Source: Amoebophrya sp. A120 (Eukaryota; Protista; Dinoflagellata). From it: 64,000 bases of DNA. The notes beneath the pieces were generated by a model that was not told the origin of the DNA, searched no databases, and worked only from the letters and a program-made list of their open reading frames with translations. The translations under genes were made by a program, and so were the position numbers. The stretch covers positions 502,051 through 566,050 of the forward strand of contig CAJINV010000014.1 of NCBI GenBank assembly GCA_905178155.1, read 5' to 3'. Shown in pieces: positions 1 through 56,000 of this stretch; the stretch's first letter is position 1; every line of letters begins with the position of its first letter.

Positions 1-142
1 CCCGGCGGTTGCCCTATATGGTAACGGCAACTGCCTTCGCGCTGCGTTTGCTAAGCAATATCGCAAGCGCGCAGAGCGCGCGCGCCGGCTTCGTGGGCCG
101 GCGCGCGCTCTGCGCGCGCGCGCGCACGCATTTGGTTACCAG

Positions 143-184
143 ACCATCATCGGGGGGTCCACCACTCCTGCGTGACCCGTCTTA
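143..184. repeat. 33-bp core direct repeat, copy 1 of 5
   Basis: ACCATCATCGGGGGGTCCACCACTCCTGCGTGACCCGTCTTA; matches copies at 837, 2386, 3914 and 5410. Confidence 0.9.
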
Positions 185-3913: not shown

Positions 3914-3973
3914 TCTACCATCATCGGGGGGTCCACCGCTCCTGCGTGACCCGTCTTACTTGCGCCGTCTGTA
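3914..3973. repeat. 33-bp core direct repeat, copy 4 (extended)
   Basis: Shares 55 bp with copy 5, including CGTCTTACTTGCGCCGTCTGTA. Confidence 0.9.
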
Positions 3974-5106: not shown

Positions 5107-7741
5107 TCACAGAGAAGAGTGTTCCGGTCGTTGTGCGTAGCATTGTAGCACTAGGCTTTCCATCGTTGTTGCTACGATCTGAGATGGTGTCGAACGTAGT
5201 AGACCACCTCTCTTGCGAAACACACCATCGGTGCCGAGACCACCTCTCTTGCAAAGCACATCCATGCACGCTTTAGAAGAGCGACCGTGGCGAAGATGGA
5301 TCAAAAGCAACAGTTCGGTTCGTGCGAACAGCAACACAGAGGATTGAAAATCGCGATTTAGATTGACAGAAAAGGAGTAATAATCAGTCAGTCTCCTTTC
5401 TCCCGTCAACATCATCGGGGGGTCCACTGCTTCTGCGTGACCCGTCTTACTTGCGCCGTCTGTACCTCCTGAGGCTGTGCTGCCCCCTTGACGACCCTGC
5501 TGCTTGTCCTCGTCTCCTTGGTTTGGAAAAAGGAAGCCCGTCACGTTCTGTAGTAGTTGACCCACTAGGTTTCCGCCGAGAAGCTGAGAGGTTGTACTAG
5601 ACGTAGTCGTCGTTGTTCTCAGCCTACTATCGTCTACAACATGACCATCTTCTTCCATCTTTATGCCGTTACTCCCTAGGTCTGCCACGGCCGGATCGTT
5701 GTCAAGAACTTGTTCTAGTACGTCCACTTCCTCGTCTTTCATCTGCTTTTCCAACAATTTGAAATCCTCGCTATTCAGCGTCGGCTTTGCTCGGAGCGGC
5801 TGCACCGCGGAAGAGGGTGACGTCGAAGAACCATTTTCAACGAGAAGAGCATCAACATCTGGTCGATTTGCATTTCCATTTTTGTCTCTCTCTACTTTCG
5901 CTTTCCCGCCCGAAGCGGCACCGCCACCTGCCTGCTGCATGAAATCTCGCAAATTTTTCCCGGCGCCACCGCCCAGATACTGTTGCGACGCTTGGTTGGA
6001 AATTCTGGCTGTTTCGTTGCGGCGGTCCGCTTCAGCATCCAACACTGCGCGCTCTGACGGCGTTAGCACGTACGGCGAATCTTCCACGCGGCCGCCCGGC
6101 TCCACGTTTAATATTTTGCCCTTCTTCTCCTCTCTATGTCCTAGGCAGCAACAGCCCACCAGGCAGCACAGCAGCAGGAGCAACGCCAAACAGGAGAAAA
6201 CCACCAACCAGAAGAGGTCCAGCTCCTCCAGAAGTCCTTGTTCTCTACTAGTACTTGTTCTCTTTTCATCCTTTTGGCTCTTGGCCACGAAGGCAGCGGG
6301 GGTTGTGTGGCCGGAGCGGGCGGCGGCTTGACTTCGTCTAGCGTTAGTGAGCAGCAAGCTCTTCAAGTCATGTCTACTTGTTCCTCTATTTAGTTTCAGC
6401 GGAGGACCAATCGTTGCAGTTCCTGTTCTCGTCCCGGAATGACCGCTGCAGTTCCTGTTTGATCAACAAGACAGGGAAAATGGCCGCGCCCCGACCTCGG
6501 TTGTTGACGTGAGTGCTCGGAAAGGCCCGGCCGTGTCGCCGAGTCCTCTCGGAGAAGGCATCCCGAGCCGGATCGCGGTTGCCTGGCTTCTTGGGTTGCG
6601 TGGGTGTGGGGTGGCATCGGGCACGCAGCTGGCTGCCCGGCGCGGCTGTGCCGCCCCTCGATGCGAAGGCGGAAGCGTAGTGGGCGCAGGTGGGCGGCCC
6701 ACATTCGCCGACCGCGCCAGGTTTCGGAAGGGGGCAAGGGGGCGGGGGGAAGAATTTATGCCTTGGGAGGATTACCAAAGTGGCCCGCGTCGCAGCCGCA
6801 ACGAGCTGCAGAAAAAGCGCAAGCGGGGCAAAGGAAGCCAAAGCAGAGCTGTGCGCCCAAAGGTAGCTGCGATGAGCATGCCCCAGCCCAAGGCCCCGAA
6901 GGTGGGAGATGGGACCTGCGCCGCTATGAGGCTACATGACTTGCACGGCCGGCGTGGTAAACGAAGCGCACAAAGTGCTAGAGGTGGAAGCGGATCGACG
7001 CTTGTCGCGCGCAACTAGAGGCGTAGTATGCCCCTTGGGTGTCATCAACAGTGCCAGGCCCTGCGAGCCCCAGCAACAAGAGGCGACCGCGCCAACTCCC
7101 TTCGCCTTATTATCGGGAGAGGCGCGAGACCCAAAATTTTTTTTTCGTTTTGTTGAAAAGAAGGTCTTGTTGACAGATTTCGCTACCGTACCAATCGTTG
7201 CAGTTCCTGTTCTCGTCCCGGAATATGAAGTAGACGGCGAAGATCTTCTTGACGCGAGCGCCTCGTTGTCCTCTTCGTCAACATCCCTGGGCCACCTGGG
7301 GTAAATAACTCTTTTACTTTTCCTGCCCTCGCGTCTCCGGGTCCTTGTTTTCAAGAGTGTCACCGCAGAAACGCAACAGGAGCAGGACCATGATCTCCGC
7401 GATAACATCTTCATAGAAGCAGGTGCAGGAGCAGCAGTAGTCACAGTTCTTGAAAAGTAGGAAATAATATTATCTCCAACAAGATCCCCCGTCGCCATGG
7501 TGGTTTTCGAAAACTTCGACACAGTCTGCGACCAATTGAGAATTGCAGGAGAAGGCCGCGACGTCGGTATTGCAGTATTGAAAGGTTGTGGCCATGTGGA
7601 ATTATCCTGCTGCGCCGGCCGCGGGGAACGCTCGTCGATGCTTGCAAGGAAAAGAATGATGTGGTCCGTCCAACTAATAGAACCCATGCAAAGGAAGACG
7701 ACGACGAGAAACATTTTGAGATTATTTTTTTTGAAAATCAT
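5107..7741 (-). CDS. Putative type I membrane protein (signal-like N-terminus, TM followed by Cys cluster), interrupted by a direct-repeat-flanked insert
   Basis: ORF 6932-7777 joins ORF 5107-6366 in frame across the 35-bp repeat (SGTRTGTATIG); TM LFWLVVFSCLALLLLLCCLVGCCCL; true 3' end uncertain because of the repeat array. Confidence 0.6.
5410..5464. repeat. 33-bp core direct repeat, copy 5 (in coding frame, TDGASKTGHAEAVDPPMM)
   Basis: CATCATCGGGGGGTCCACTGCTTCTGCGTGACCCGTCTTACTTGCGCCGTCTGTA. Confidence 0.9.
6406..7224. repeat. 35-bp exact direct repeats (6406-6440, 7190-7224) flanking a largely GC-rich 749-bp insert
   Basis: ACCAATCGTTGCAGTTCCTGTTCTCGTCCCGGAAT at both positions. Confidence 0.9.
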
Positions 7742-11700: not shown

Positions 11701-13973
11701 ATCATACTGCGCATCGAGACCACCAGGGCAACCACCTCCAAATGTGCATTCATAGTCCAGAGCCTCTTTCAGCAACCTGCACTCCTCATCAGCTCGATGC
11801 CGTGCTCGACCCATAATTCTGCTTGTGGTCCCAGAATCCGCACAAGCCGAACAACCCCGGCGAACGTACTCGTCGATTTTGTCTCGGCCCAACACACGAT
11901 ACCGCGTCACAAACGCAGCCTCATTCCTAAAAATGGGCGAGCGTCTTCGTTTCGGTCGTGGTGGAGGGTCGTGCAGGTTTTTCAGGGTAGTTTGCGGTCG
12001 AGCGCCGGGAGCTGCAGGAGGAGTGGTGGACTGCGTTGAAAAAACTTCTGGTCCTCGCTGTCGGCCTTGTTCTTTACCAACAACAAGAAGGTCTTCTTGA
12101 TGCAAGTGAAGATGTTGTGCCTCGTTGTAGTTGTACAAAAATTCGCGCGCCTCGACCAGCATTGCGTTCAGCTCTGCAGCGAATGCATTGCAAACACCCC
12201 TGGATGTCTGGAAGCATGATGCAAGATTTGTCATGCTAAACCGAAGTGCGACACACTTTGCCTCCCCCTGTGTAAACGGCCGCAGATGGCTGTCACGCAG
12301 GGAAGGTGGGTCAGGCGGACATCGAAATGCCATGCAAGATTTGTCATGCAGGTTTTCAAACATGGCTCATGAAGTCTGGAATGCAGGACCTAGCGCGACA
12401 GATATGATCTCTATCGCTATCCTGCCTATGCTGCATCAGAAACTCTCTCCCAACTTGCTGGTCGAAAGAAGAAGTGGACAGCTTTTGGTAATCACGCAAC
12501 ACATCATACTTTTGCATGATTCAGATTTGGCGTGTCAAGATGCAGAGGTGGAGTTCCAGAGGGCTCAGACATATTTGCGGTTGATACCGCGTTTTTCTTC
12601 ACAACATTCCAGACTAGGCGTCTGAAATCAACACCCTCATCCGGGTCTTGCGCTGCGACTTCGCTCTCCACATGATTCTGTAGTTGTTGAAATTGTACAC
12701 GCATAGCCTCCGAAAATGTCCTCGGGATTCCGAAATTGAGGTACTCCGAACGGTAAATCCGGGACCGAGTTGCCAGTTTCTGAATCAGGAGGGACGATGG
12801 ACCAGCGCCGCGGGGGGCTCTCTTATTCGGAGTAGGAGCTTCTGCCTCACCTCCTTGTGGCGTCGGAAGAATTCCAGTACCTTCATCCTGACGCGCAGCT
12901 TCTGCTTCCTCCATTTTTCCGTTTAGTCCAGTTCCTTCGTCACAACCAAAACAACTTCCTGGCGCAGCACCCCCTCCGAAAAAAAGCTCTCCGAGCCACG
13001 GCTCCACGTCGTACTCGATCCACTTGAGAACGGTATCGTAGGCGCGATGCAGCTGCAGTGGGGAATTATAAAACGAGACATCCTGCTCCTCGTGCTCCAT
13101 CATATTACGACCAGGTCGGTCAGTCACAGTCTGCTCGCCACCTCTGCTGAATAAAGGAATAGTACCCGCAGAATCATAATTTGGCAGAGTAGGAGCTCCT
13201 GAGCGATCATTGCGTTGAGAGTTCTTGTAATTGTATCCTCCAAACACGTTGCTTTTCAGACTGAGCGAGTTCCGCTCCCAGAGTGCATGCTCCCGCAGAA
13301 ACGCGACGGATGCCACTTTCGCTTGCTCCAAACATATCCTCTCCAGGGCCTCCAAAATTGGCCGCTTCGTCTTGCTGCGCGGCGGGGGCGCTTCCTCCGG
13401 ACCCGGAGGTGTAGTTATAGAAGTGGAGTCGACGTCGTGTTCGTTGACCGGGCGTTCTTGTTGCGTAGGGGAAAAACTACCAGAATAAACATCATCAGGC
13501 GCAACACCCGAGAACAACAAAGGGCACGCCGCTCGTGGTTCGACTTTGCCTGCAGAGGTTGTACTTGTAGCTCCGCCTGCTCTCCTCAATTTCACCACCC
13601 CCCCTTCGTCACCTCCGATGGCGCGTAGAAATTCTTTATACTTGCCCAGAAGCAGAGCCTCACCCGATTTGTAGTGCGTGCGGCCGGTAGCAGCGGCTGC
13701 TCGTCGAGAACCTGGCTCGGCAGAAGCCGATGCTACGCTATGGCTGCGGCATAAGAAAGAACTCGCGTGGCTGACCTGTTCTGCTTTCTGTGCCAGGAAG
13801 ATTTCTGAGTTGCACAAATAGTCCTGGCTCCATGGGGACGGAAGAGCGCCGACCACGGCTAGTAAAAGCGGATGGAGTTGTATAACATGCGAGAGAAAAA
13901 TGAGTACGCGCCGCTGACGAAAAACGACTTCCACCCGGGCTGTTGAATTAGTAGGGGGCCACGTCCTCTTCAT
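8701..13973 (-). CDS. Large hypothetical low-complexity protein (~1,650 aa)
   Basis: ORFs 12504-13973 and 8701-12363; GT donor at 12509; junction resolvable in two ways; no domain recognised. Confidence 0.6.
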
Positions 13974-14755
13974 TCTCCCTCCTTTTCCAGCATCTGAAGA
14001 ATGAGAACCGTCACTGCATGGACGACTTTCTTTCAGTTTTGTTCAGATGGCCCATCTTTCGCTTCCAATATTATCTTGGACTCATTTGTTGATTCTGTCG
14101 GTACCTGACGCTGACCAACAACTCTCAGCAAAACGATAGCTTGCTCTTGCTCATCCAAAGTTTCGCAAACGTTAACGTAAAAATTCCTACGAATGCTGAA
14201 AATATCTTCCGACTTGAGGTCATGTTTTTTCGGGTCCGACTGCTATCCGGCGACAGAGTTGTCATAACTTCCACGGAGAACGGAAAACAAGATCTGTTGA
14301 CCGACGAGTAAGGGACGAAAAGATGATGACGAAAAACGAATGGCGGCTCTTTGATCACAGCACCCAAGAAACAACGAGTGGGATTGCAAAAGGAGCAGAG
14401 CTCCGATGCCACGGAGTGTTTTTTTATTTTTTGGGGCGAGTCGCTTGTCAAGTACAAATTCGCTTTATTTGTGAAACCTCCTCGAAGACGAGCACTACAT
14501 ACTATTACTTCCATTTAATCGAAAAGAAGTAGCAGAGCACCTATTTTGGTGGGCAACCCGCATCATACGAATACGTAAGTATCTCTATTTTTGCTCACAA
14601 CTGAGCAGGTTACGTCTGCATTTTCTTTTTCGCTCAGAGATGAAAGTATAAAAACAACTCAAATGGTCGCGTGGTCGTGCTGAAATATCAAGAAGTGTGA
14701 ATTCTATCTGGCTGATGTACAACTCAAGGAGCTACAACTGCCCTGCTTTATCGGC

Positions 14756-17039
14756 TTAAGCTCCCACTTTTCTTTTTTTCGCCGGTTTGTTCTTGTTATC
14801 CCCAGCTGTTGTACCCTCTTCGTCCACGTTCAGCGGACACTTCACCTTCGGTTTCCCGAGAACTTTGCAGCAGTTATAGCCCCACTGCTTCGTGGCAACG
14901 TCGTAGTAACTGCCGTAGACCGACTTGTGCCCGTACCGAAACACGTCTTCCTTGTACAGTGTGGAAGTCGTGTGCTTCTCTTTCTCTTTGTCTTTATTCA
15001 TCTGTGCGTTCTTATCCTCGATGGACTTGTTGTACAGCGTGGACCTGGTCTCGTCGTGCTCCGGAGGTTTCGGCACCTCCACTGGATTTTTAGCTTCATC
15101 TTGCAGAAGTAGTTCAGAAGGAGGTTCTAGTACTTGTTGCGCGCCGCTTGTTTCATCTCGTGCCAGTACCGAGGACGTCCCCGGCCGCTCGGTGAGCAGG
15201 AGGGATGTTGCGGAGGAAGACGCCGCCGCCGTCGGTGCAGCAGCACCGGAGGATGTAGTCCCAGCAGGAGCTGCAGACGGCAAGTCGTGCGCCAGATCTG
15301 CCTTGTTTTCACGACCTTGCTCACCTTGTATTTTTAAAAGCGCGGCACTACTAGAAGTAGTAGCGGACTGAAGTTTGTGTTGGTCATCGTGTTCGTTTAT
15401 CATCGTCTCGGGCCGCGGGGGCACGTTCATATCTTCCAAAATTTCGCTTGGTTGTTTGTTTTGTTGGAGCAAGGAGCTTGAGCTGCTGCTCGAGGAGGCG
15501 GCTTGTTGATGTTGTGGCGCCAGTATTTGCGGAGCTGCACCCAATCTCGAGGATGAAGAGGAGGAGGCACCTCCAGATCCAGCCCCGCCCAGCAAAGACC
15601 CTAACTCCCTTTTACCTTCCTCGGCCGCAGCAAATGATCGTGCTGCCTCGTCGTCTCCTGGCTCACCGAGCAACAACCCGGGCTCGACATCTTCTATCGC
15701 ACGAAAAAACGGCGTCACTGTAACTACGATCAAGTAAGGCTTGCATAGCATTTTCACATCACAAGTTCAAGTTCTTCTACATGACAAAGAAAATTAGGCC
15801 CTCCATGGTGCACCTGGCCTACTAACACTACATTTGTAGAGAACAACTACTCGGTTGCACATCCGTATAAGCATAACTCTCGTCTGCTGGGTCCTCTGCG
15901 AGGACGTCACCAAAGATTATACAATGAAACACATTTTTCTACTTGCGATACCGTCCTGGTCACCCGGATGAATGTTAATTTCTTCTTCGTTTACTTCTAG
16001 CGGTCTCTTCCCGCTACTGCCTGCCGCTCCACCGCTTGGGCCTAGTCCACCCTGCTTCAGCCGTTCCTGTTCTTCCCGCATTTTCTTCATCCTCTTCTGC
16101 GTCTCTAGGACCGACTGCTTTTCCTCGGGGCGCATGCTGTTCACGTTCTTCCGGGCAGTGATGTCCGCGAACAGGTCCTTAAAGCCGCCCGTCTTATGAA
16201 AGCCGCGGGTTGGAAATGCTCAAAGTGGAAAGGATTTGTGATGCATGAAAATGCGACACAAAAAAGACTGCACTGCAGAGAACGCGATGGAGGCCGACCC
16301 CGACTATTGTCCTGCTAGGGGTGAAGAATTGGGGTGCTGCTTAGCACGACAGAAGGGCACCCCCTTGCCTTAACCTGCATGACAGACATGCTTTAAGTGC
16401 CCGGGAAATTTGTGATGCGCCAACTACAAATGCCGCTTCAACTGGAGTCGATTTTTTGCATTACAAATTATTTCCACTTTGAGGATTTCCAACGACCTGA
16501 GACTTGCATACGTCTTGTTCCGCTTTTCCTCGGCCGTCATCTTCGTTTTCGCCGCCGCCTGCTGGCCCAAAAGGAGGTTGGACTTCCGGATCTCTTCCAG
16601 CTTCCGCTCCTCCTTCAGCCGCATCTCGCGCTCCTCCGCCTGCCGCTCCAACTCCAGCTGCCGTTCTATGGGGTTCTCAAATGTTACATTCTCAACTGTT
16701 GCATGAATTTGTAATGCAAGACTGGTAAAAGTGCAAGGAGGAAGATTGCGCCTTTTGCATTACAAGTTTGGCGCAGATTCAGTCGCGGCTTAGCCCTTCG
16801 CAAATTTCTCATGCGGAGCAGCTTGATCGTGGGGAGGATGATGGTGCTTTTGCATGACAAATTCATGCAACAATTGAGAATGATGTAACGTTTGAGAACC
16901 CCATACGTTCCTGGTGCATCCACATCCGCTCTTGGTTCTGGTGCGCCGACGGGTGGAAAAACTTCTGCGCGATAAACCCGCCCGCCTTCGACCCCAGGCC
17001 GGACCGAAACGCTCCCTTATCGTGGAACTTTTTGGACAT
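14756..17039 (-). CDS. Splicing-factor-like protein: Cir_N/CWC25-like N-terminus plus Slu7-like C-terminal motif (~486 aa)
   Basis: Exons 17039-16906, 16661-16511, 16189-15952, 15693-14756 in frame; QKFFHPSAHQNQERMW and YKEDVFRYGHKSVYGSYYD...WGYNCC motifs. Confidence 0.7.
15695..15950. mobile_element. Aged introner now framed by GT...AG
   Basis: Sense G-TATCGCA...TGCGATA-G; flanks GACGG/GAAGA (3/5). Confidence 0.65.
16195..16510. mobile_element. Introner family D
   Basis: TATG...CATA, TIR GTTGGAAATNCTCAAAGTGGAAA, TSD CGTCT; frame restored (NKT/GGF). Confidence 0.9.
16667..16905. mobile_element. Introner family C (TIR TATGG..CTCAAA.GTTACATTCTCAACTGTT)
   Basis: ~50-bp TIR, TSD CGTTC; frame restored (QER/QLE). 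Confidence 0.92.
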
Positions 17040-21902: not shown

Positions 21903-23544
21903 TCACCCAGTTTTGTTTTCCAATTTCTGCAAAATGTAGTCCCACTCCGCTTTCGCCACGCCCGAGACCGAGGGCGCCCGATTTCCCTGCACGAGCTGCA
22001 TGGATTTTTTCAAAAAAGCGTCGTTTTTCAGCTCCTCGAGCGGAATTAACCGCTTCAACTTTCGCACAAACTTGACGTCGACCTGGTCCCAGGTTGGGTT
22101 GTCTTTCGAAGATTGGTTTATCCACTGCAAGAGCATGGTTGAATGAGCATATTCGATTATTATAAGCGGGCAAATCGATGATGCAAAAAGGAGCATGGAT
22201 TTTTTTCTTCCACACAGAAGACGAGCTTATAGCAATGTGAATACTTCAGATTTTGGCCTAAAAACGGACCTGAAATTCAAGTTGTATTCTCACGCACATA
22301 TGGGTACCTACGGAAAGCTGGAATGGCGTTACATCATGAGGATCATACAACGATACAAAAACCATACAACAGTTCTTGCTCTTGCAGTGCATACTTTTGT
22401 CGTAGTGCGGGTTGTCTTTCTCGAACTGCGTCGGGTCTGGATACCTGCATTTTTGTTCGCGAAGATACAGTAAAATACATCTTCAGCTTGATGCAGCGCT
22501 GCAGCGCTCTCGGCTCTTGCTATACTTGCCATACGTGACCACACTGACACGACGCACGGACCGACGCAAGCAGGAAAATAAATCTTCATCATCGATCTTT
22601 CCTAAACGAACCTCTTCTACAAAACATCAGCTCAGTACGCCTCTCGCACCACCTCCACAATGCCCACAATGCCGCTGGGCTTCGCGTTCGAGTGATAGAA
22701 ATATCCACAGGAGAAAAAAACGCATCCACATCCATTTTTTGCATGGCAAACACATGACTCGATACTTGTTCTGCATGACAAATTAGATGGGGATGGGTTT
22801 TTTTCTGTGGATAAGAAAAAGGCCTTGTCGCCAACCTTCATACTCCGCATGATGTTCCTCGCAAGGTAGTTCCGCACGCCGTCCCAATCGCAAGTGGAAT
22901 TTTTCTCCGCGATCAGGTCGTCCAGCGAGTACTTCATGTCAAAGCTCTTGCCGGTGGGGCCTGGTGTGCGGTGGATTTTTTTTCGTCATGGACATCATGG
23001 AGTAATACGTTCATGCGCTTAGCCGGCGTCATCACGTTCTTGGATGAAACGGAGCTGCGGACCAGCAAGCCCGTATTGGGGTGTGATCAACATCCGTGTC
23101 AGGATAGGCCGTCCGTGCAGTCATGCGCGGCGTAGTGGAAGAGGAAGAACCAAGATTTATTTGTAGTTCTGCGAGGCCTCACAAGGACGCGATGTGACGA
23201 CAACATGCATCAAGCACACCTGTGCTGTACACCTTGACAGAACAACGTAGTATGCAATACAGCTGCGACCGGTACGCATAGAAGGCAATCAGCAGCCAGC
23301 ATGGAATACGAATACCTTTCTCCATCCTGGTTAGGGGCTCGGACTTGATTAGGTAGAAGTCAGGTTTTTTCATCGGCGGTTTCTCCTCCTTTTTCTTCAT
23401 GGCGGTTTTCATCGCAGCAGATGCGGGCTTCGACAATTTCATGCTGCTACTCGATATTTTCATCGCCGTCTTCATGGCACTCGAGGGCCCGGAGCCCCCC
23501 TTTTGCACCTTCTTCATGGCGGACGAAGAGGATGCTGCGCTCAT
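21903..23544 (-). CDS. THYN1: EVE-domain protein (thymocyte nuclear protein 1-like), ~231 aa
   Basis: YLIKSEP, YSLDDL, WDGVRNYLARNIMRSMKVGDKAFFYHSN, GIVGIVEVVREAYPDPTQFE, W..VDVKFVRKL; exons 23544-23316, 22960-22814, 22696-22639, 22444-22394, 22113-21903. Confidence 0.9.
22119..22393. mobile_element. Introner family L with degenerate TSD
   Basis: TIR TATSCACTGCAAGAGCA; sense flanks AAAAG/AACCA; element+5 nt restores the EVE frame. Confidence 0.8.
22702..22813. mobile_element. Introner family F (~110 bp)
   Basis: TATCCACAG...CTGTGGATA, TSD AGAAA; joins AFF/YHSN. Confidence 0.92.
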
Positions 23545-42246: not shown

Positions 42247-45178
42247 CTACACAGAATTTTTACTTCCCGTTCTACTGTTATTTTTACTCCCATTTATATT
42301 GTCCTTTTCCTCTTGTCCTTTCCCAACAATTTGCAAGAATTGGCTCGTGCTTTTCTCATCGCCTAATTTTAAAGCGGGTTTGTCCCGCGGGTACATTAAC
42401 AAATATGCAAAGCTTAGTAGGCACCAGCATAGCAACATAATCACAAACACGTCGTTTTCGAAAAACGCGCGGTAGAACTTCAAGTACCGAATCTGTGCAT
42501 TGAAAACCACGTCTGCCGTTGTCGCGCGCGCGTAGTCCCGGAACGCCAGCTGCGCAAACTGGACGATGGCGCAAGACGTGAAATTCACCAGAATCGCGTT
42601 GAACAGCAGGCTGTTGAGTGGCGTGTGGCCCTTCTTCATGGGGTGGATGGAAAACAGACAGAACGCTCGCATCCCCACCTTCAGACAGCCGGTGACGGTC
42701 GCGAACACCAGGTGCATGTTGAGAATGGCGAAAAACACCGCGGCTAGCACGAAGAGTCCGCTGGACTCGAAGGCCTGCAAGAACTCGTTCAGCATGAGGG
42801 AGACCGGCTCCTCGTTCTCCTCGCCCGGCTGGTCGATGAGGAGGTAGAAGAAGATGTGCAGCACCCAGAAAAAGGAGATGATCGCGAAAATGACCCCGAA
42901 AAAGACCTTGAGCCCGCTGGTGACCGGGTTTTCGCCCCGCTGCTTCATGCAGATCTCCATGTGGTCGTACTCCTTTTCGAGCAAAAAGCACGATATGGGA
43001 CTCTTAAACGTTACATTCTCAACTGTTCCATTAATTTGTCACGCAAAAGCACCTTAAGCCGGCAGATGATCAAGCTGCTTCGCACGACAAATTTCGGAAG
43101 GGCTAAACCTGCGGCAAACTTGTAATGCAAAGGGCGCAATCTTCCGCCTTTCACTTTTGCCAGTCTTTGTCTTGCATTACAAATTCATGTAACAGTTGAG
43201 AATGTAACATTTGAGAACTCCATACACGACTGCTTGAACTTGTTGAACTCGGTTTTCAGCTCCCGTTTTCGCTTGTTCACGTTGGAAAAGTACCCCCCGG
43301 TGGCGTCCTTCAGTTCCGTTTCCCGGTCCTGCAGTTCCTGTGCCTTCGCGAGAAGCGACTCCGCGGTTTGCGCGTACAAGATCTTCCGGCTCGCGTACTG
43401 ACTCGCGGTGATGGGTTTCGGCCGGTCTTGGTATTCGATCAGCAGGTCCATGGGCAGCGCCGTCAAGCCCACGCCGCCAAATACGACGAACAACCACCAG
43501 CCGAGGAAGCAGAAGACCGCCATCAGGTAGATGTCGAATCTGACATTGATCTCCAAGAATTTCTCCGCGGAGATTGCGCACACGTGGCCCGACCGAATTT
43601 GCTCGCTCGCACTGATCCAGTTGCCGCACGGGTAGTCCTGCACGGGGAGCTTGGCGACGGCCAGGAAGGCGAAGCTAATCAAGAGAAACATGAAGACGAT
43701 GAAGAAAAAGAACGGCTTATCCTGTGAAAAAGTTCAAACGATATCGCACTCGTAGTTGTGATTTGTTTCAATGCATAATTATTTCCCAGGTAACTCAGCA
43801 TTGCATTACCTTCGTTCTCCTTTGGAAAAAAAAATTCTTTCAATGCAAATCCACTTTCTGTTTCTACTACGTAGGGCGACATTGCTTTATTTGCGGTGCA
43901 TACAGCATGTTCACGAGCAATTTCCTTCCCGGGCTGGAGTTGCGAAATTGGGCGAGTCGGCTGGTCGTGTTCGCATTGCTGGTCGCCGCAGCTCCTCCTC
44001 CTGCGCTACTGCTACTGCTGTTGCCGAAAACGATCTTCCAGTCGCCGTTGATCTCGAGCTATCAAAAAGAAAAATCCCCCCTCCCCATATCGAAAACGAA
44101 ATTTGTGATGCAGTATTTGAGTACACAAATCGCATTTGTCTTGCTGGAGAGGACTGCAGACCCATACCAAGCCTGAATGGAGAGGCTTTGACTTAGGCGC
44201 TTAGCATGAAAAGCGTCCGCGATGTTGGCTCAACAGCATGACAAACCGGCTCCATAATGGGACGGAAGCTGTTGCCCTTGTCTTCTTGCAACACGCACGT
44301 GATTTGTGACCTCAAATCAGCAACACAAATTTTCGAAAGCCTACCTCTTCAATATGGGGAGGGGGGATTTTTCCTTGCGATACGAGCCAGAAGATGCCCA
44401 TGGGAAGCACGAGCAGGATTTATTACAGTGAAAAGTGCCCCCCACCCCCAAAGTTGCAAAAATTTGTGATGCGAAGTTTCCAAATGAAACCTTTTTGTCA
44501 TGCATGAAAGGAATAGGAATCTTTCTGATGCAGATTCTAGTGTTGTTTCGCATCGCTTGCATGACAAGCACCGCTCTTGCTGGGATCTTTTGCAATACAA
44601 ATTTTTGCTCTTCACGATCGGAAATCTGTGATGCTGATACATGCAAGACGGCGATTGTTTCATTTTGAAAGGTTTGCAATACAAATGCTCCCAAATTCGG
44701 GGGTGGGGGCATTTTTCATTGTAATAGGATTAGTAGGATCACAGAAATGAACGCGATCAGCCAAAACGCCTCCATGTTCAAGCCGCCATTATTCCGCGCG
44801 TTCCGCACGTCAATGGGCAGGAGAAAAATCACGATATACGCAATGGTGAAGCTGGCGATGACCACGAAGCGCAGCCCAATGTGGTCCTTGGAAGCTTCGT
44901 CCGAGTCTCTGTATTCCGTGCAAAAGTATCTCGCTTCATCTAGTATAACGGAGTGCTTTTATGCATGACATTGACATCAAATCAGTTTACGTCTAGTAAG
45001 TTTGCAAGGCTGAATTTTCATGACCAGTTCCATTTGTTTCCTTTTGAAAAGAGTACTGTACGAAATAGTACGATACTTTTGCAATGCATACTTCGTAGTA
45101 GAAGACCATTTTCGCGTTGATCACGAAAAAGGAGAAAATCCCCGCGATCGCGAAAAAAAGAAGGAAAAGGTCGATCAT
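42247..45178 (-). CDS. LMBR1/LIMR-family multi-pass membrane protein (~560 aa)
   Basis: LLPIDVRN, LGWWLFVVFGGVGLTALPMDLLIEYQDRPKPI, HPMKKGHTPLNSLLFN; exons 45178-45091, 44906-44727, 44415-44383, 44054-43903, 43712-43225, 42988-42247; all 5 introns are introners. Confidence 0.88.
42994..43224. mobile_element. Introner family C
   Basis: TSD CACGA. Confidence 0.92.
43718..43902. mobile_element. Diverged introner family E
   Basis: TATCCTGTG...TGCATA; TSD CGGCT/CAGCA (3/5); frame restored. Confidence 0.78.
44060..44382. mobile_element. Introner family A
   Basis: TSD CGAGC. Confidence 0.92.
44421..44726. mobile_element. Introner family I (TIR TATTACARTGAAAARTGCCCCC)
   Basis: TSD GGATT. Confidence 0.92.
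44912..45090. mobile_element. Diverged introner family E
   Basis: TSD CTCTG/CTTCG (3/5); joins YYE/DSDE. Confidence 0.8.
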
Positions 45179-47057: not shown

Positions 47058-50000
47058 TCACTCCGTCCTTAGCCTCTTCGCGACCTGCTGGTCGGGTTCT
47101 ACTGCATTGCGGTCAAGCATCAGATCCTCGTCCTCATCAGGGATAGGAATGTCGTTCGGATCCTTCTTGTCGTCATTTTTGTCCACAGCAGCTGCACCAG
47201 CAGGTGCGAGAGGAGACCGCTCATCAACCTTCATATTCTTGCCACTTGTTTCATTCGCATTCCTTCCAGGTGAAGCAACAGCAGTTGCACTGCTACCACT
47301 TCCGAGGGCCGTCGCGGGGGCGGCACCGACAGCAGCTGCACTGCCAGAAGCGGTACCAGGCCCGGAAGTTGATGTAGTACCTCCACCGTTTGGTGAGGAA
47401 AGTAGAAGAGAGCCTTTTTTAGGCGCGTTGTCCTTGTCCCCCGTCGCGGTTGGTCCTGTCGGCGGTGAAGGGAAGCTTGGCTTTTTTTCAACAACAACAG
47501 CATCGTCTTCCTTATCCGAGTCGAGGTCGCTGTCGTACTCGTCAAAAATGTTCTTCTCCGGTTTTTTTGTCGCGGTGTCAATCTCTTGATAGTCTTTCAA
47601 CACCGGACTACTCGAAGACGATTTACTTCCTCGCGAAGTCGTGCTAGTCGCGCCACCCGCTCCAGTGGAGGTTTTCACGACCGTAATGCTGATACCATTG
47701 TCGACGAAAGTAGGAGAGCCTGTCTTATTTGTGCCTTGTACCTGGCCACCAGCAGCACCTGTGTTACCACCCACAAATTCACCTCGCGGGATCAAAGAAG
47801 ACAGTGCCGGGCTAGCAGTGGTCGCAGCATTGCTGGAAGAATGTTTCTGCAGTGCAACTACCGGTGGTCCGGTGGGGCCGATGTTGACATAATTACTAGC
47901 AGTTGCTGTAGTCGTCGTTCTACTTCGTGGGGAAGCCAGAGCTGTGGATATCAAAGACGATGGCGCGGGGGCCCCCGCGACCAGTGGTCCGCCACCTCCC
48001 ATAGCACTGCTCTTCAGCACGTTGGCACCGGCGATATTTGCGACCATAGCCGCAATTGAGGAAGCGCCGGCGGAAGGAGAAGACACTGAGCTTGGTCCTC
48101 CAGCACCTGGAGCAAGCGAAGGGCCAACAATCGGGTCGTTGCCCGCAGTATTTGCTGATCCGTTATTTTCGAGGAGTGCGGCAGCAACACGACCTCCTGC
48201 AGCCCCAGCACCGGTTGTTGGCGCAGCACCACCCGCCCCGAAGAGAGCAGTAGAACTGGAGTTAGTCGACGGAGAGAAAAAACTGCCGCTTTGTTGACTC
48301 TGTTCTTTCTGAGCCAATTCTTGCTTGCGCTTTTCCTATCCTGAGTAAAAACGTACCCACACCAGAGTCAGCATGGGGATTTTGCAACACAAACCTAGCC
48401 GTTTTGTGAGTCACGGATGACAAGTTGCACTCTGTAGTGTAGTGCAGGTTACCAAGTGCAGCGGCGTCACAAATCCAGCTGCTCATCCTGTTCACAGCAT
48501 CACAAATTCCAAAACACGACTGGAAATGGCTCTCATGGGGATGCGCATTACAAGTCTTCCTGTCTTTGCAAATCTGCATTACAACTCTGGTGTGGGTACG
48601 TTTTTACTCAGGATATTTCCACCGAGTGCTTCATTTCCTCCAACCACCGCGGACTTGTAGATATCGTAGAGAAAAATCCCCCCTCCCCATATTGAAAGCG
48701 TATCCGTCTGAAAATTTGTGATGCGCATTTGTGACCTCAAATCCTGTCTGTCTTGCAAGAAGGCAAGTTCAGAGAGCGCCCTGCATTTTGCAGGCGGTTT
48801 GTGATGCTGTTGGGCTTAGAGCATTCACGTTTGTCATGCTAGGCGCCTATGTCAAAACCTCTCGCCTGAGGCTTGACATATGCCTGCAGTCCTCTACTGC
48901 AAGACAAATCTGATCTGTGTGCGGAAATCCAGCATCAGAGACTTCGGCCCGATATGGGGAGGGGGGATTTTTCCTTTCAATAGTAGAGCTCGAGCTGCCA
49001 GAGGAAGAACTTGCTCCTGCTCCACTACTTGGAACAAGTAGGTTCAAGTTCGAAACAGCCGGCACCGTTATCACCGGTGGTGCCGCTCCGCCCACATCGG
49101 CTGCGTTCGCGTCAGAAGATTGTTTCTGTAGCTGATGCTGTTCCCTTTCCCCGGCCTCTATGGCTGCGTCAACCTTCTGCAGCAAAAGGGACTTGTGGTC
49201 CCGCCCACTAGAAGAGGTGGATGCAGAGCTATTGACAACTGTCGGAGCAGCAATGGTCACGCCCGGCTGCTGCAGCGAAGCGCTGGTGCTGGAGGAAGGA
49301 AAAACTCCTCCGCTGCTACTCGATGAGGTGGATGATGTGTACCCAAACTTAGCTTTGAGGAAATCCACAGGCTGATTCAGATTCTCGCTCGCTGAAGACG
49401 AGCTGCCCGTTGTCCCGGCCGAATTGGTTCTGTGGTGCGACAGCTCCCGCTTTTTCGCACTCTGGTCCTCTATGGCGTCCTCAAATGTTACATTCTCAAC
49501 TGTTACATGATTTGCCATGCAAAATCAGCATCAACGTCCACACGGTGAAGCTACTTCGCATGACAAATTTTGGAAAGGCTAAACAGCATCGGAATCTGTG
49601 CCGATTTTGTAATGCAAGAGTTGCAAGATTCGGTCTTTCCCTATTGCCATTCTTGCATCACAAATTCATGTAACAGTTGAGAATGTAACGATTGAGAATC
49701 CCATATCCTCCTCTTCAGCATTGTAGTAGCCTTGCTCGGACAAATATCCAGGAAAAAACATCCATCCCCATCCAATTTGTCATGCATACATGCATAAAAT
49801 CTACTATTTGTCATGCAAAAAATGGATGGGGATGGGTGTTTTTTCCTGGATAACAAAACGTGCGCAGTGCGCTTTCGGCTCTGCAGGTTGGAGGGAGCAG
49901 TGTCGGGCTGTTTTGTGTATAATGTTTTTTTTTTCACCGTTCAAATCTAGCATTGGTCGTAGAACTTCCACTTCGTGAACAGTAACTAGAAATACATAGA

Positions 50001-53000
50001 TCAAAATTTGCATGCTGGGAAATCGAAGCCACAAAGAGTATCATGTGCATGTGAGCTTGAGCCTTTAGAGGTACCTTATTCTGCACAACTCCTCGTCCGG
50101 ACGTAGCGCCGCCACTGTCCGTAGTTCCCTCGATGAGCTTGTGCAGTTCCTCGTCCGTCTTGTCAAAGGTGGAAGAAATGTTGATTTTCATCGAGTTTCC
50201 AGCCAGATTCCTCCCGCCACTCGATGCTGCGGCCCCGAAGGCGTTCCCGCGCCGGAAGGGCATAGAAGTAGAACTACTAGTACCTCCAGAAGTTCTTGTA
50301 GACGTTTCGCGGTTCATCTGCAGGAAGGCACTGGCCGGCTTTTCCTCGTAATCGGGGAGAAAGTCGTCGTCCAAAATACTTGCGGTTTTGCTCTTGACCA
50401 ACCCCGAAGCCAGGAACAGATCCTGTATCGAATTGGAAGAAGAGGAGGACGATGCCGTCGAGGTCGTCGTAGGAGTACTATTTTCTGCTCGATTCGGCGG
50501 GCCGAAGGGGCCGAAAACAGGTCCGGTCGGAGGTGGTGCGCCAGCAGCTGCTGCCCGGCTACCCGAAGTATAATTAGTCGCCCCTCGTCCGCGACTGCTG
50601 ATCATGTTGTCCTCCTCATCATCGTGATTTTGCATGTTGACCACCGGGGGTAGTTTCAGAGCCTCTCGCGACTTGCGTTTCTTCTGCTTCTGGGACTTGT
50701 TCACGGACCGATTGATGTTGGACGAAGAGGAGGAACTAGAGGTGCCAGCACTTGCAGTGTTGTTACTGGACAGAAATGCACCCGCAGTTCCCGGCTGCGG
50801 GTGGGGGCCCAACAAAGGTCCCGCGGCGCCGCGGCCGGCATGCGGCGGGCTGTCGTCGCTGGATGACAAGGAGTCGGAACTGGAGGAGTTATGGCGTTCT
50901 CAACTGTTACATCCTCAACTGTTACATGGATTTGTGATGCAAAAAGTGCAACAGTGAAATAGGAGACCTTGCGCTTCTTGCATGACAGATTTGGCAAAGA
51001 TTCTCAGCCTGTTGGGCTCGTCGGGAATTTGTCATGCGAAGCAGCTTGATTGCGTCGATTCTGATTGCAATTTTGCATGACAAATCATGTAACAGTTGAG
51101 AATGTAACATTTGAGAACGCCATAGGAGTCGCTGTCACTGTCTGAATTCTCGAACCAACTGTCGTCGACGACATAGTTGGAATCTTGCCTGTGAGAATTC
51201 GTGTTGGTGGAGGAATTTATTTAAGTATTTGCGTGGCATACGCATATCTTTTAGTTTTACCCCACGTGAAAAATGCGCTATATGACAGAGAGCGGAGGTA
51301 CTGTTTCTAGCAGCTTGTTCGAATTGGAATTCTTATTCTTCTTGTAACTTCTGAACATGCGGACTAGTTCTCCTCGCGGTATAACTTAGTGCGATTGATG
51401 TTTTTTGTTTTTCAGCAATGTCGATGATGCGCGAACGTTGATACAACCTGGTATAATCAACTATCAATGATGCCGAGCAATGCAACCCGTGCGGACATTG
51501 ATCTAAGTAAACTCATAAGTACCTTCTCCTCGGTCCCGCCCCGCCGCTCCCGCTGGAGCTGCTTCGTCCCGGCGGCCCTATCGGCGACAAATCGTCGTCC
51601 TCCGAAGCGCGCCGCCTTCTGTCCAATTGCTCCAGATCCACCTCCAGTTCGTGGTCTAACGCCTGTTCGTCCGCCCGCGCGAGCGCGTTGGGATCCAGCA
51701 AGAGACCACCCCCGCCCTTGTTCCCGAACGAGCCCCGCAGCGTCGCGTTTCTCAAGTCCTCCTCCAAAAACTGCTTCCGCTGCCGCTCCGATTCCAATTC
51801 CTGCACCTTCCGCTCTTCTATCCAGGAGAAAACACCCATCCCCATCCAATTTGTCATGCAAAACATGCATAGAGTCCACTATTTGTCATGCAAAAAATGG
51901 ATGGGGATGGGTGTTTTTTTCTGGATATCTTCCGCCTTGATGATCGCTTTGTAACTGACGAAAACTTTCGACAAGACCTGCACCTCGCGGAAGTCCTTTT
52001 TTCTCCCCGGAATGTTGGGGCCCCCGCCCCCGTCTTTCGGGGGAGGGGGCTGGGGCCCGATACCGGAGAAGATGTTGCCATTCTGGTTTTGGTATCAAAT
52101 GCAAAAGTGTCTGGGTCTGGAAGGATGCAAGGTTTGTCGTGCACATTTTGCATGACTTCTGATGTCTGTGATGCATTCCCTAGCATCACAGATTTTGTGA
52201 GGGCTTCCTGATGCCTGTACCGCATGAGAAATGCCCTCTCGGCGTGGCAAAAACTGGACCTCTTTTGCTTTTCATGCAATACAGACTTTTGTAGAATCCA
52301 GACGCAGCATCACAAGTTGCATGCTTCCAGACCCAGACATTTTTACATTTGATATTTGGTTATTCGTCACTGCAAACCGCTCCGCGTCCGAGTTCCGGTT
52401 GCACCAGGGCTCGATGAAAACCTCGTTCTCGAAGTTATGGCGTTCTCAGCTGTTACACTCTCGTCTGTTACATGGATTTGTCATGCAAGAACGCCAAAAG
52501 TGAAAGGGGGAAGATTGCGCCTTTTGCATGACAGACTTGGCACAGATTCTCATCCTGTTTGTCCCTTCGGGAATTTGTCATGCGAGGGAGCTTGATTCAT
52601 CATCATGTAGTGGACACCCGCTCCCAGCGCCACAGGTCAAGGATCCCCTCCCCGGGGGGTGGGCGAGGATTCATATCGACTCTGATTGGAATTTTGCATG
52701 ACAAATCATGTAGCAGTTGAGAATGTAACGTTTGAGAGCCCCATAGAAGTGCTCAAACAGAAACTTGATCAGTTGCCGCATCAACTGGAACTGCTGCGAC
52801 CCCTGCGCGATGGCCTGCAACAGGGCCAAAATCGAGGAGAGCAGCGAGTTGCCCGCGTACCGCTTGGCGGCCTGTTGGCTCGCGGATTGTTGGTAAGCTG
52901 TAGAACCAGGGGGTGGAGAGGACGGGGAATTCATCATGTCCAGACCCGTTCTTGGGGAAGACAAGGACGCTGACGCAGCACCACGATTATTAAAACCTCT

Positions 53001-56000
53001 GGCACCTCCACCTGCGCCTGAGTAGCTACTCAGTTGCTGCACCACGGGCTTGGCCATCTCTTCCAGCTGGTCCTTCAGAATCTTCATCACGGGCTTCCAC
53101 AAGATGTCCGGCGACTTCATCAGCAGCCGGCCCAGCTGTTCCTGGTTCCGCATGATCACGGTGCGGATGAATTTGATGATCGCGATGTGCAGAAACTTGC
53201 ACGGAATGGCGAACAGTTTGCTCACTTTCTGGCAACACTCCAGGTTGGCAATGAAAATGATCACCTGCACTTGCTCCTGCTTCTTATTCGGATTCGGGTT
53301 GGTCGTCACGGATTTTTGCAGCCCGGCGCACAGGATATCCAAAATGCACTGCCGGGCAAAGTTACGGGCGTCCTCTGTCGTTGTATATATATGGAGAAGT
53401 TGTGTGGTTTGTGATGTTGAAGAAATTATATTAAGGGTCATCTTCCACAACTATCTAGGCTCGAGTCACCGAAGTAGAAGATGACAGGGAGAAGCTGCCT
53501 TTCATCATTTTTATACCTCAAAAGTTGGGTCTTGGCCAAAAAAATTACAAGATCTTTTCTCTGTACTACTAGCTAAGTACACTTACCATCCATCCTCTCG
53601 TCGAACAGTGTTTTTTCCTTCAGGGCCGTGACTAGCGGCACCATGACCCCCTGGCTCTTGTCCCACATAATCTCGCAAAAACCCTCCCGCTCCGCGCCCC
53701 CGACCTTCTGCACGTTGGCGAAATTATGGAACCCGAACCCGCCGGACCCGGACTCCGCGGAGGCCAGCATGGCGGACAGCTGCGGGTTGTGCTGCGCTTC
53801 GAAGTCCAGACACCACCGGAGGAGCTCGCACACAAGGGACTGCGTGGGCTGGTCGTTTTCGACCAACAAAAGTTCCGCGATCTTTTTCAGCCACGAGGGA
53901 TTGTCGATGGCGTGCTTGCGGATCAACGAGGGGTTGTGGTACGCGTACATCTATCCTGTGCAAAAGTATCGTACTCGTATTGCTAATGCAGTCATGCATT
54001 ACAATTTTTTTCCTAAACAAAGGTAAATCCGCATTACAAATATTTTTTTCTCTTGCTGAGGAAATTTGTAATGCATTTATACGAGAAGTACGATACTTTT
54101 GCAGTGCATAACATCTGCAGAATGTCCAGCGCGACCGTCCGCGTGGACGCGTGCGGGGATCGGCGGATCGGGAAGGGGCCCGCGAGGTTCTCGAACTTTT
54201 TCGCCGCGGTCCGGGGGGTGAGGGGGATCAGCGTCCCATCCAACGCCGTCGTGGTCAGTTTATCTGACAGCTTCAAAGCCTCCTCCAACCCACTGGTACT
54301 AAGTTGTTTAGCAGGAGAGGAATCTTGTTTCCTGTCGCCGCTTTGTTGCGTCGTGGAAGAGGGTCCTCTTGGAGTCATTGGGAGATCATTTTTGTCCCCG
54401 GCGCCGTCGATATTATTGGTCGTGGCAGCTGCACTATGACAGTGCACAACCCCCCCTCCCCCTGATTTGTCATGCAAAATACGCAAGCCACCCTTTGCCT
54501 CTTGGCACTGTTTGCTTGACAAGTTCTGGTGGTCCAAATAGCACTACACTCCAGTGCAAATTTGTATTTGGCATGCAGAACCGGCGTTCTTGCTCATGCT
54601 TGTATTGCCGCCCATGCTATACAAATGAGGGGGAGGGGGAGTTGTGCATTGTCATATGCACCTGGCCCGTTCACGGTTTCCAGGTCGTCAATCAATTTCA
54701 ACTGCTGCTGAAAGTCGTCGCTGTGGTAGAGTTATCAACTGCAAATATGTTTGGGTCTGGAAGATAATTACAGGACAACTTCTCATGCAGCTATTCCGTG
54801 CCCCATGCTGTCTCTGATGTTGTGTGTTCTAGCATCACAGATTTTCTGAGTCCTTTGTGCTGGTGCCTATCTTGCATCAGAAAGTGCCCTCTCGACGTAG
54901 CAAAAACGGAACTCCTCTTGCTGCTCAGGCAATACAGATCGTTTTAGCGCCGTCCAGAAGCAGCATCACAAGTTGCAACTCTTTCAGACCCAGACGTGGT
55001 TGCAACGCATAAGGGGTTTTCCACTTCGAAACCAATCACGTCGCCGTCGTGCGGGACTTCGGGCTCCAGGAGAAAGGGGAGCAGGAGGTTGAACAGTTGC
55101 TTTCGCTCGAAAGCGATGTACCTGAAGGATGGTTTGGATCGAAGATAAAATCCAGGTAGATGAACTACAAACATCGTTTGACTTTATGTATTTTGAGGCT
55201 TTCACAACTTCACACGACACATTGAGGATAGGATCTTTTTCGACCAATGCATGATTAGATCATAAATGTAAAATAAACTTTGGATTTGACACTTTGCAGA
55301 ATTTTCGACGTGATAAAAATAAAATTTTAAAATTTCACGGATTTTGAATTTTCAACTGCAAAACTCTGCACCAAAAAAACGACGAGGCAACACCATTCCT
55401 GGATTTGTCTCATTCATTCGAATAAAGTGACAGCTTGGCTCTTCTTTTTCCTCAGGTTCGCCCACTCTTTAAAAATAAAAAATTGAAATTTCGCGGATTT
55501 ATCCTTTCAATAAAAATAAAACTTTGAATTTTCGTCGATCAAATTGAAGTTCTTGTAATCCGAGTGAACTCAGAGTACTAGCAGCTTGAATATCATAGTA
55601 TTGATTGTACTAAAAAGAACTGCTTGCTTTGTTACTTGTTCGTCTCTGTACGCAGGGAATTGAAATTTTGAAATCCTCCCGAAATGGTAAAAAACAAGCA
55701 TCCATCAAAAGCATCCATATTTATACAGTCTCTCCTTTTCCGTTGGACTGAGGGCGTGATTCTGGTACCGCACCGTTCTTAGCGCTTCCGCTACGAAGTC
55801 CAAGGTGAGCCAATCCTTGGCCGCCAGCTGCTGGCTATGAACTGCAAAAGTATCGCACTCGTATAAATGCATTACAAATTCTCTCAGCATGAGAAATCAA
55901 ATTTGTAATGCGGATTTACCTTGAGAAGAAAATTTGTAATGCATGATTGCAATACGAGTACGATACTTTTGCACAGGATACTGGCAAATGGTTTCCAACA

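What the first reader, a model, noticed from the sequence alone, without database searches (positions are those of the whole stretch)
15694..15951. Introner caught turning into a GT-AG intron; canonical donors here are often G-TAT
Seen: this intron reads G-TATCGCA...TGCGATA-G, an introner body with decayed TSD whose flanking Gs create GT and AG. Both the introner register and the GT-AG register keep frame. Eight of my 15 modelled GT donors begin GTAT (4616, 12509, 15951, 19974, 23315, 36457, 55726, 59909). Inference: either many canonical introns are aged introners, or the TAT terminus mimics positions +2..+4 of the donor for a spliceosome that tolerates any +1 base.
Basis: partly seen in the sequence, partly recalled or inferred. 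Interest (0 to 1): 0.75.

Follow-up and report, generated by a model that had tools for sequence, protein, structure and literature searches.

The report
Ageing introner, GT-AG by chance
This intron in a gene of the marine parasite Amoebophrya is a decayed copy of an already described jumping-element intron; it begins GT and ends AG, but it is cut at the same offset from the element's ends as its non-GT-AG sister copies, and about 400 related copies show no drift towards GT-AG, so its normal look is likely coincidence rather than a conversion in progress.

Summary
The element is real: a 256-nt TAT...ATA introner (15695-15950, minus strand) of the published Amoebophrya A120 kind, with a 3/5 target duplication. 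The in-frame AG in 'ATAG' is skipped at 8 of 8 testable introners. In 401 copies from a related assembly, decayed copies are no richer in +1 G (31/123 vs 78/278) or terminal AG (5/123 vs 24/278); about 2% should read GT-AG by chance. The window's own excess of G (7/9 vs 8/35) did not replicate, but very old copies are under-sampled. Canonical introns are GTA...CAG, about half GTAT, without element remnants. The mimicry idea is supported: at the donor end changes spare +2 T and fall on +4. The one-before/four-after cut was noted by this scan before on other DNA. Verdict: known element, no general conversion.

The parts
15695..15950 (-). Introner body, 256 nt, TAT...ATA; decayed member of the family that includes window 59297-59505, L019:4339-4547 and L050:4430-4634; 3-nt insertion in the donor-side arm
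15691..15951 (-). Intron as removed: 261 nt = element + 5; starts G-TAT, ends ATA-GAAG (GT..AG)
   Evidence: RNA-like contig piece ends at 15690; junction peptide in P0001; sequence allows a start 1 or 2 bases before TAT, other loci fix it at 1
15951..15955 (-). Upstream copy of the 5-nt target duplication (GACGG): four bases exonic, last G = intron +1
15690..15694 (-). Downstream copy (GAAGA): four bases intronic, last A exonic; differs from the upstream copy at positions 3 and 5
15694..15695 (-).
15931..15950 (-). Donor-side inverted-repeat arm, starts TAT = intron +2..+4
15695..15714 (-). Acceptor-side inverted-repeat arm, ends ATA = intron -7..-5
14756..17039 (-). Host gene, 485 aa (exons 17039-16907, 16662-16512, 16190-15952, 15690-14756); weak Cir_N and Slu7 C-terminal matches, both below Pfam cut-off
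16663..16906 (-). Young introner intron of the same gene (perfect GAACG duplication): reads GT..AC at element + 5 although an in-frame GT..AG cut is available
   Evidence: P0001 junction
16191..16511 (-). Introner intron of the same gene, GT..AC, perfect duplication, decayed arms

Best explanation
The intron is an old copy of an Amoebophrya A120-type introner that is removed as the element plus 5 bases, cut one base before its TAT and four bases after its ATA like its sister copies, and its GT and AG ends likely arose by neutral point changes in the left-over target-duplication bases rather than by a switch to canonical splicing. Shown: element anatomy, 261-nt removal, the same element + 5 rule at 14 of 14 printed introner joints, skipping of the in-frame ATAG acceptor, no excess of G or AG in decayed copies. 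Inferred: a U2-type spliceosome reads UAU at +2..+4, as it does in this genome's canonical GUA(U/C) donors, no longer needs G at +1, and on hairpin-ended introns sets the 3' cut by distance from the element end instead of at an AG; canonical introns keep an ordinary CAG acceptor. Inferred from two papers: the +4 U taste fits the reported absence of snRNP27K, so a TAT-ended transposon would have been pre-adapted, and GTAT canonical introns need not descend from introners.
For: Register: piece end 15690 and P0001. 14 of 14 printed introner joints skip element + 5; informative ones allow starts of {0,1}, {1} and (this intron) {1,2} bases before TAT, which meet only at 1. ATA|G acceptor skipped at 6 of 6 such RNA joints, one of them (55836-55980) also with G|TAT, and at 2 of 2 in P0001. 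No drift: +1 G 31/123 decayed vs 78/278 perfect (p=0.63); terminal AG 5/123 vs 24/278; GT-AG 0/123 vs 4/278; G gained 10, lost 6 (p=0.45); AG gained 4, lost 3; no trend with arm decay (16/52, 24/79, 41/165, 15/56). Chance GT-AG rate about 2%, P(at least one among 44) = 0.58. Terminal-triplet changes: donor end 0/2/9 at +2/+3/+4 (n=257), acceptor end 5/5/2 (n=259), p=0.0035; the +4 changes are to C, G, A as in canonical donors. Canonical introns: 10 of 10 examined in the window are GTA...CAG, 6 GTAT, none with end pairing (2 of the 10 model-only); 13 of 27 repeat-free modelled ones in related loci are GTAT, 0 of 13 with ATA at -7..-5. PMC7789003: nearly all spliceosome proteins present, snRNP27 and U1 not detected; top A120 non-canonical ends all have T second. 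PMC10581693: loss of SNRNP27K or METTL16 goes with +4 U.
Against: In the window decayed copies do favour +1 G: 7/9 vs 8/35, p=0.004, and both window copies whose fifth duplication base differs have the G on the intron side. My detector missed this very element, so the oldest class is under-sampled in the 401. A looser pass gave 3 GT-AG of 58 candidates, including a clear look-alike in L008, with 26 false-strand hits as control. GTAT canonical introns show a small excess of best-offset pairing (9.5 vs 8.9 of 20, p=0.03, uncorrected). RNA evidence is contigs of one sample, flagged as 'RNA?', which drop minor forms and may be the data behind the annotation. No call touches the spliceosome itself.
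Confidence: 0.65

Rival explanations
1. Selection converts ageing introners: as the hairpin decays, copies that pick up G at +1 and then AG at the end are spliced better and kept, so this intron is an intermediate and some canonical introns are former introners.
For: Window: 7/9 decayed vs 8/35 intact copies start with G (p=0.004). Both duplication mismatches here sit exactly where they give GT and AG at the cut used. Second example in L008. PMC7789003 reports IR+DR organisation in 15% of A120 canonical introns, more than the 7/352 GT-AG rate that I find would easily give. Fungal introner-like elements are described as decaying into regular introns (PMC3609843, abstract).
Against: Not replicated in 401 copies; pooled odds ratio 1.07, p=0.82; no gain-over-loss bias. 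The intron ends AAG, while 10 of 10 canonical window introns end CAG. Decayed copies keep non-AG ends with an unused AG nearby (12178-12587 and 22115-22394 by RNA). Canonical GTAT introns lack arms, ATA and family homology.
Confidence: 0.17
2. The intron has a tandem acceptor (TAG-AAG) and is spliced canonically, with the reader's 258-nt form made at least as a minor product.
For: Both cuts are GT-AG and in frame. Contigs drop rare variants (tool note), so a minor form would be invisible.
Against: The assembled RNA and the deposited protein use the distal AAG. From general knowledge of U2 splicing the proximal YAG would normally win. The same proximal AG is skipped at 7 other introners that have no second AG at the introner cut, apart from 51819-51927.
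Confidence: 0.06
3. Introners, this one included, are removed by a separate hairpin-guided machine (as supposed for Euglena non-conventional introns), and TAT only happens to resemble the donor.
For: Fixed offsets from a stem on both sides; elements work in either orientation (69 vs 68); AG is ignored; U1 not detected. Euglena introns follow a paired-motif plus spacer code with unknown machinery (PMC12501133, abstract).
Against: A pure stem reader would constrain both arms alike, but changes are asymmetric in the pattern of a donor site (p=0.0035). Copies with poor pairing are still removed exactly (12178-12587, 11/20 pairs). The whole intron does not fold better than shuffles (z=-0.52). In Fritillaria, TIR-derived non-canonical introns need the U2 spliceosome (bioRxiv 10.1101/2025.08.15.670264, passage).
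Confidence: 0.12

Closest known systems
Introner elements (IEs) / non-canonical introns of Amoebophrya sp. A120 (Farhat et al. 2021, PMC7789003; also PMC12130899)
   Same: TAT start, seven variable bases, then a run of A; 8-20 nt inverted repeats; direct repeat across the exon/intron borders; about 240 nt; host protein is named A120 by its source. [quoted passage not shown]
   Different: In the sections and supplement text I read the paper gives no fixed one-before/four-after cut, no test of drift to GT-AG, no statement that in-frame ATAG acceptors are skipped and no link to the canonical +4 base. Its Figure 3 logos were not visible to me and may already show GTAT.
Introners that co-opt splice sites from the target duplication (Symbiodinium, Florenciella, Aureococcus, Micromonas; Gozashti et al. 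2022, PMC9860276)
   Same: DNA-transposon anatomy; one or both splice-site dinucleotides come from the duplicated target.
   Different: There the co-opted sites are what lets the insert be spliced; here G and AG are optional (about 27% and 7% of copies) and are not enriched with age.
Fungal introner-like elements that decay into regular spliceosomal introns (PMC3609843)
   Different: Recalled, not checked in a call: those elements carry canonical ends from birth and only lose sequence likeness; a change of splice-site class is not involved.
Fritillaria borealis TIR-derived non-canonical introns (bioRxiv 10.1101/2025.08.15.670264) and Euglena non-conventional introns (PMC12501133)
   Same: Transposon ends or paired end motifs serve as splice signals at fixed spacing; in Fritillaria U6 m6A is reduced.
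   Different: Fritillaria ends are supplied by the element (AG/AC, AG/AT); Euglena uses a CDG/CHG pair at other offsets. Here +1 and the last four bases are host sequence and vary freely.

Membership tests
Amoebophrya A120 introner elements | 8-20 nt inverted repeat at the two ends, starting TAT with an A run at 11-13 | tested here: met
   12/15 and 12/20 paired, p=0.008; end scores 13.5 and 9.2 bits
Amoebophrya A120 introner elements | 3-5 nt direct repeat across the borders | tested here: met
   5-nt repeat decayed to 3/5; removal length is element + 5
Amoebophrya A120 introner elements | Repeated family elsewhere | tested here: met
   Ends align with L019, L017, L003, L050 and window 59297; the middle has diverged
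Amoebophrya A120 introner elements | Removed from the transcript | tested here: met
   X1 record 2 piece 14427-15690 continues into 612 upstream letters; P0001 lacks it
Amoebophrya A120 introner elements | Non-GT-AG ends | tested here: not met
   Ends read GT..AG; the paper itself counts such IR+DR introns among canonical ones, so this is the known minority class
Canonical introns of this genome | Donor GTA(T/C) | tested here: met
   GTATCG
Canonical introns of this genome | Acceptor CAG, no inverted repeat | tested here: not met
   Ends ATAGAAG; 10 of 10 examined canonical window introns end CAG with no end pairing
Spliceosomal (U2-type) intron | Lariat formation and dependence on U2/U6/Prp8 | not testable with these tools
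   No raw reads of this strain mapped; no snRNA in the window
+4 U donor systems (METTL16/SNRNP27K loss) | Absence of SNRNP27K and/or METTL16, unmodified U6 ACAGA | not testable with these tools
   No genome held; snRNP27 'not detected' in PMC7789003 Table S6; METTL16 status not seen

The most novel reading that the evidence does not exclude
A120 runs two 3'-end rules on one spliceosome: CAG for old introns and an AG-blind ruler from the hairpin for introners, while both share a donor read only at +2..+4 (UA-U/C). Loss of snRNP27K shifted that donor to +4 U, which let a TAT-ended transposon family become tens of thousands of introns that need never turn canonical; A25's TTA-RR ends would be the same trick with T at +1. 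Introns like this one, with two in-frame AGs, are ready-made reporters to tell the two rules apart.
Probability: 0.35. Interest if true: 0.65.

Novelty: new member of a known kind. Interest (0 to 1): 0.3.

Why it matters
How Amoebophrya removes its non-canonical introns is open. This locus does not show an introner converting, but it sharpens the question: a GT...AG cut is on offer in frame and is passed over for the element-set offset, so GT-AG ends do not tell which rule splices an intron here, and part of the published 'canonical' class is introners. The negative result says these introners can age without becoming canonical, at least up to the decay I could detect. The +4 U link gives a concrete, testable reason why a TAT-ended element thrived. 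If conversion were real it would be a directly observable route from transposon to ordinary intron; my estimate for that is under 0.2.

Tried and rejected
No own genome is held, so no genome-wide logo, U1/U6 or METTL16 search. No listed holder was on record as RNA; X1/X2 are guessed RNA and were judged by their intron-skipping joints. The record behind L017 is not searchable, so the orthologous site in the related assembly was not seen. The only homologue (P0002) does not align across the junction, so the two changes cannot be polarised by outgroup. A local GT-AG finder was far too noisy and was dropped; the Viterbi model recovered five RNA-known minus-strand introns exactly and the donor of a sixth, but its first GTAT count (28/60; 23/132 unweighted) was inflated by undetected introners; 33 of 60 rows were dropped as repeat-bearing or over 620 nt, leaving 13/27 (p=0.047 vs intron background), with GTA and CAG imposed by the model. 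An apparent orientation bias of families in the window vanished (69 vs 68). Whole-intron folding gave no signal. Rfam found nothing in the window. mis-oriented 22702-22813 and cannot orient 1538 and 1902 firmly; none has G at +1 as called. 8 of 409 loci elements were dropped for a poor coding score, 49 more at the stricter margin. Paper searches for a prior report of conversion or of the GTAT donor in Amoebophrya showed none in the listings; subscription papers are not in the library.

Full report
Setting. The window is eukaryotic and full of short TAT...ATA elements with 5-nt target duplications. The last exon of the host gene finds one database protein, P0001, 100% identical and named Amoebophrya sp. 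A120 by its source. The elements fit the A120 introners of Farhat et al. 2021 (PMC7789003; I read the abstract, sections 10, 11, 12, 16, 32 and supplement parts 3 and 4; figures are not held, so the logos of Fig. 3 and Figs S19-S25 were not seen).

The element. It spans 15695-15950 on the minus strand, with flanks GACGG and GAAGA (3/5) and 12 of 15 end bases paired. Its ends score as introner ends, pair better than shuffles at the introner register (12/20, p=0.008), form the closing stem of the predicted fold although the whole intron folds no better than shuffles, and align with a family seen in L019, L017, L003, L050 and at window 59297. The middle has diverged, so the copy is old.

Which cut is used. 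In run X1 (contigs, guessed RNA) record 2 has a piece 14427-15690 preceded by 612 other letters; a 258-nt cut would carry the piece to 15693. P0001 contains the junction peptide of a 261-nt intron starting 1 or 2 bases before TAT, and not that of the 258-nt cut or of other registers. The joint row itself was not among the 15 printed. The 261-nt intron is element + 5 and reads GT...ATAGAAG, so it is GT-AG too, through a different AG. Annotation and contigs may rest on the same RNA, and contigs hide minor forms.

The rule in the window. All 14 introner joints printed skip element + 5. Where the duplication has decayed the start is fixed: 0 or 1 base before TAT at 12182-12586, exactly 1 at 22119-22393 (ends GT..CC), 1 or 2 here; only 1 fits all. 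Six of those joints have ATA followed by G, an in-frame AG three bases short of the cut; it is skipped in 6 of 6, including 55836-55980, which also has G-TAT. P0001 shows the same at 16667-16905 (GT..AC used, GT..AG available) and here: 8 of 8. That both registers keep frame is arithmetic and holds for 25 of 352 related copies. After recording my reading I saw that this scan has noted the one-before/four-after cut on other pieces of this genome; these are unreviewed notes, not support.

Is there conversion? In the window 6 of 8 decayed-duplication copies start with G against 8 of 35 intact ones (p=0.009), 7 of 9 with 19974 (p=0.004). To test this I scanned metagenome contigs with one family's end motif and got 152 loci, 417 kb, from an assembly that shares the element families but no unique sequence with the window; whether it is the same strain is not known. 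A detector trained on window ends found 409 distinct elements (0 in three shuffles); 401 could be oriented, and neighbours agree in 201 of 217 pairs. G at +1: 31/123 decayed vs 78/278 intact; terminal AG 5/123 vs 24/278; GT-AG 0/123 vs 4/278. G gained 10 and lost 6; AG gained 4 and lost 3. No trend with arm decay. Pooled odds ratio 1.07. By chance about 2% of copies read GT-AG, so one among 44 is expected (P=0.58). Limits: the detector missed this very element, so the oldest copies are under-sampled; a looser pass gave G in 18 of 58 and GT-AG in 3 of 58, with 26 wrong-strand hits, one being a close look-alike in L008. For this locus, the fifth duplication base is a second codon position and such mismatches are least frequent there (4.9% vs 12.4% at third positions), so the intronic G was probably gained; the origin of the AG cannot be polarised, since P0002 does not align there.

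The GTAT donors. Ten canonical window introns (7 with RNA joints or inferred length, 1 with an RNA-fixed acceptor, 2 model-only) are all GTA...CAG; +4 is T in 6, C in 3, A in 1; none shows end pairing. In the related loci 13 of 27 repeat-free modelled introns are GTAT (p=0.047 against 31% in intron bodies; GTA and CAG imposed; 33 of 60 rows dropped), with 5.3 of 20 pairs at the introner register against 15.7 for introners and no ATA at -7..-5. A best-offset pairing excess (9.5 vs 8.9, p=0.03 uncorrected) is the only hint the other way. So GTAT is a true preference in these samples and shows no sign of introner descent, though very old remnants would be invisible.

Mimicry. Elements insert in both orientations (69 vs 68), so each end can be a donor. 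Changes in the terminal triplet fall 0/2/9 on +2/+3/+4 at the donor end (n=257) but 5/5/2 at the acceptor end (n=259), p=0.0035; a stricter subset gives the same shape (0/2/7 and 5/4/2). In the window four copies have a changed acceptor triplet and none a changed donor triplet. This is the constraint pattern of the canonical GTA(T/C) donor with +1 set free. Table S4 of PMC7789003 agrees: all listed predominant A120 ends have T second, and A25 ends start TT with arms beginning TTA, which by my inference also puts T-A at +2,+3. The same paper did not detect snRNP27 or U1; Parker et al. 2023 (PMC10581693, passages) link loss of SNRNP27K or METTL16 to +4 U in yeasts. Applying this to Amoebophrya is inference; A25 also lacks snRNP27 yet has purines after TTA, which is a loose end.

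Comparison with known systems. Co-option of splice sites from duplications is known (PMC9860276, passages); decay of introners into regular introns is a published idea in fungi (PMC3609843, abstract); IR+DR structure in 15% of A120 canonical introns is published; Fritillaria and Euglena offer spliceosomal and unknown-machine parallels (passages; abstract). PMC12130899, PMC11282704 and PMC12005148 were seen as passages and add no register or conversion test. Searches listed no paper on conversion or GTAT donors in Amoebophrya.

Verdict. Observation partly confirmed, coordinates corrected to 15691-15951. A known kind of element; conversion as a process not supported (about 0.17); donor mimicry supported. 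Interest 0.3.

Noticed in passing
window 14756-17039 (-): The host gene has a weak Cir_N match at the N-terminus and a weak Slu7 C-terminal motif (both under Pfam cut-off); the one homologue found, P0002, keeps both parts. It looks like a splicing-factor-like protein, interrupted by three introners.
   Followed up: partly
window 44908-45091 (-): Decayed introner G-TAT...ATA-CAGA: a perfect-looking TACAG acceptor ends one base short of the introner cut and would shift the frame of what reads like a membrane-protein gene; no RNA joint was printed for it.
   Followed up: partly
window 12178-12587 (-): Heavily decayed introner (ATA changed to ATT, 11/20 pairs) still removed at element + 5, ending CT with an unused CAG four bases further on.
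   Followed up: yes
L008 (310-nt element, second-pass list): A second decayed-duplication introner reading G-TAT...ATA-GAAG, like the focal one; no RNA evidence.
   Followed up: partly
loci L001-L152: At the acceptor end the A at -7 changes least (2 of 259, against 5 and 5 for its neighbours); arm positions 9 and 11-13 stay paired far more than positions 4-7.
   Followed up: partly
window 133-184, 831-875, 2386-2423, 3914-3973, 5410-5464: A short dispersed repeat of about 40-60 nt in five copies, not of the TAT...ATA kind, in a region where my gene models are unclear.
   Followed up: no
window 6406-6440 and 7190-7224: 35-nt direct repeat bracketing about 750 nt; the DNA run X5 shows many differing letters and higher depth in 6544-6960 and long ORFs lie on both strands, suggesting a multi-copy or mobile segment.
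   Followed up: no
window 16457-16491: Raw RNA reads of run X8, which otherwise do not map, pile up (over 500) on a 35-nt stretch inside the 16195-16510 introner: a related introner family is present in that run's transcripts.
   Followed up: no
canonical introns, e.g. window 49908-50074 (-): Canonical acceptors here have an A/C-rich tract before CAG rather than a pyrimidine tract.
   Followed up: partly
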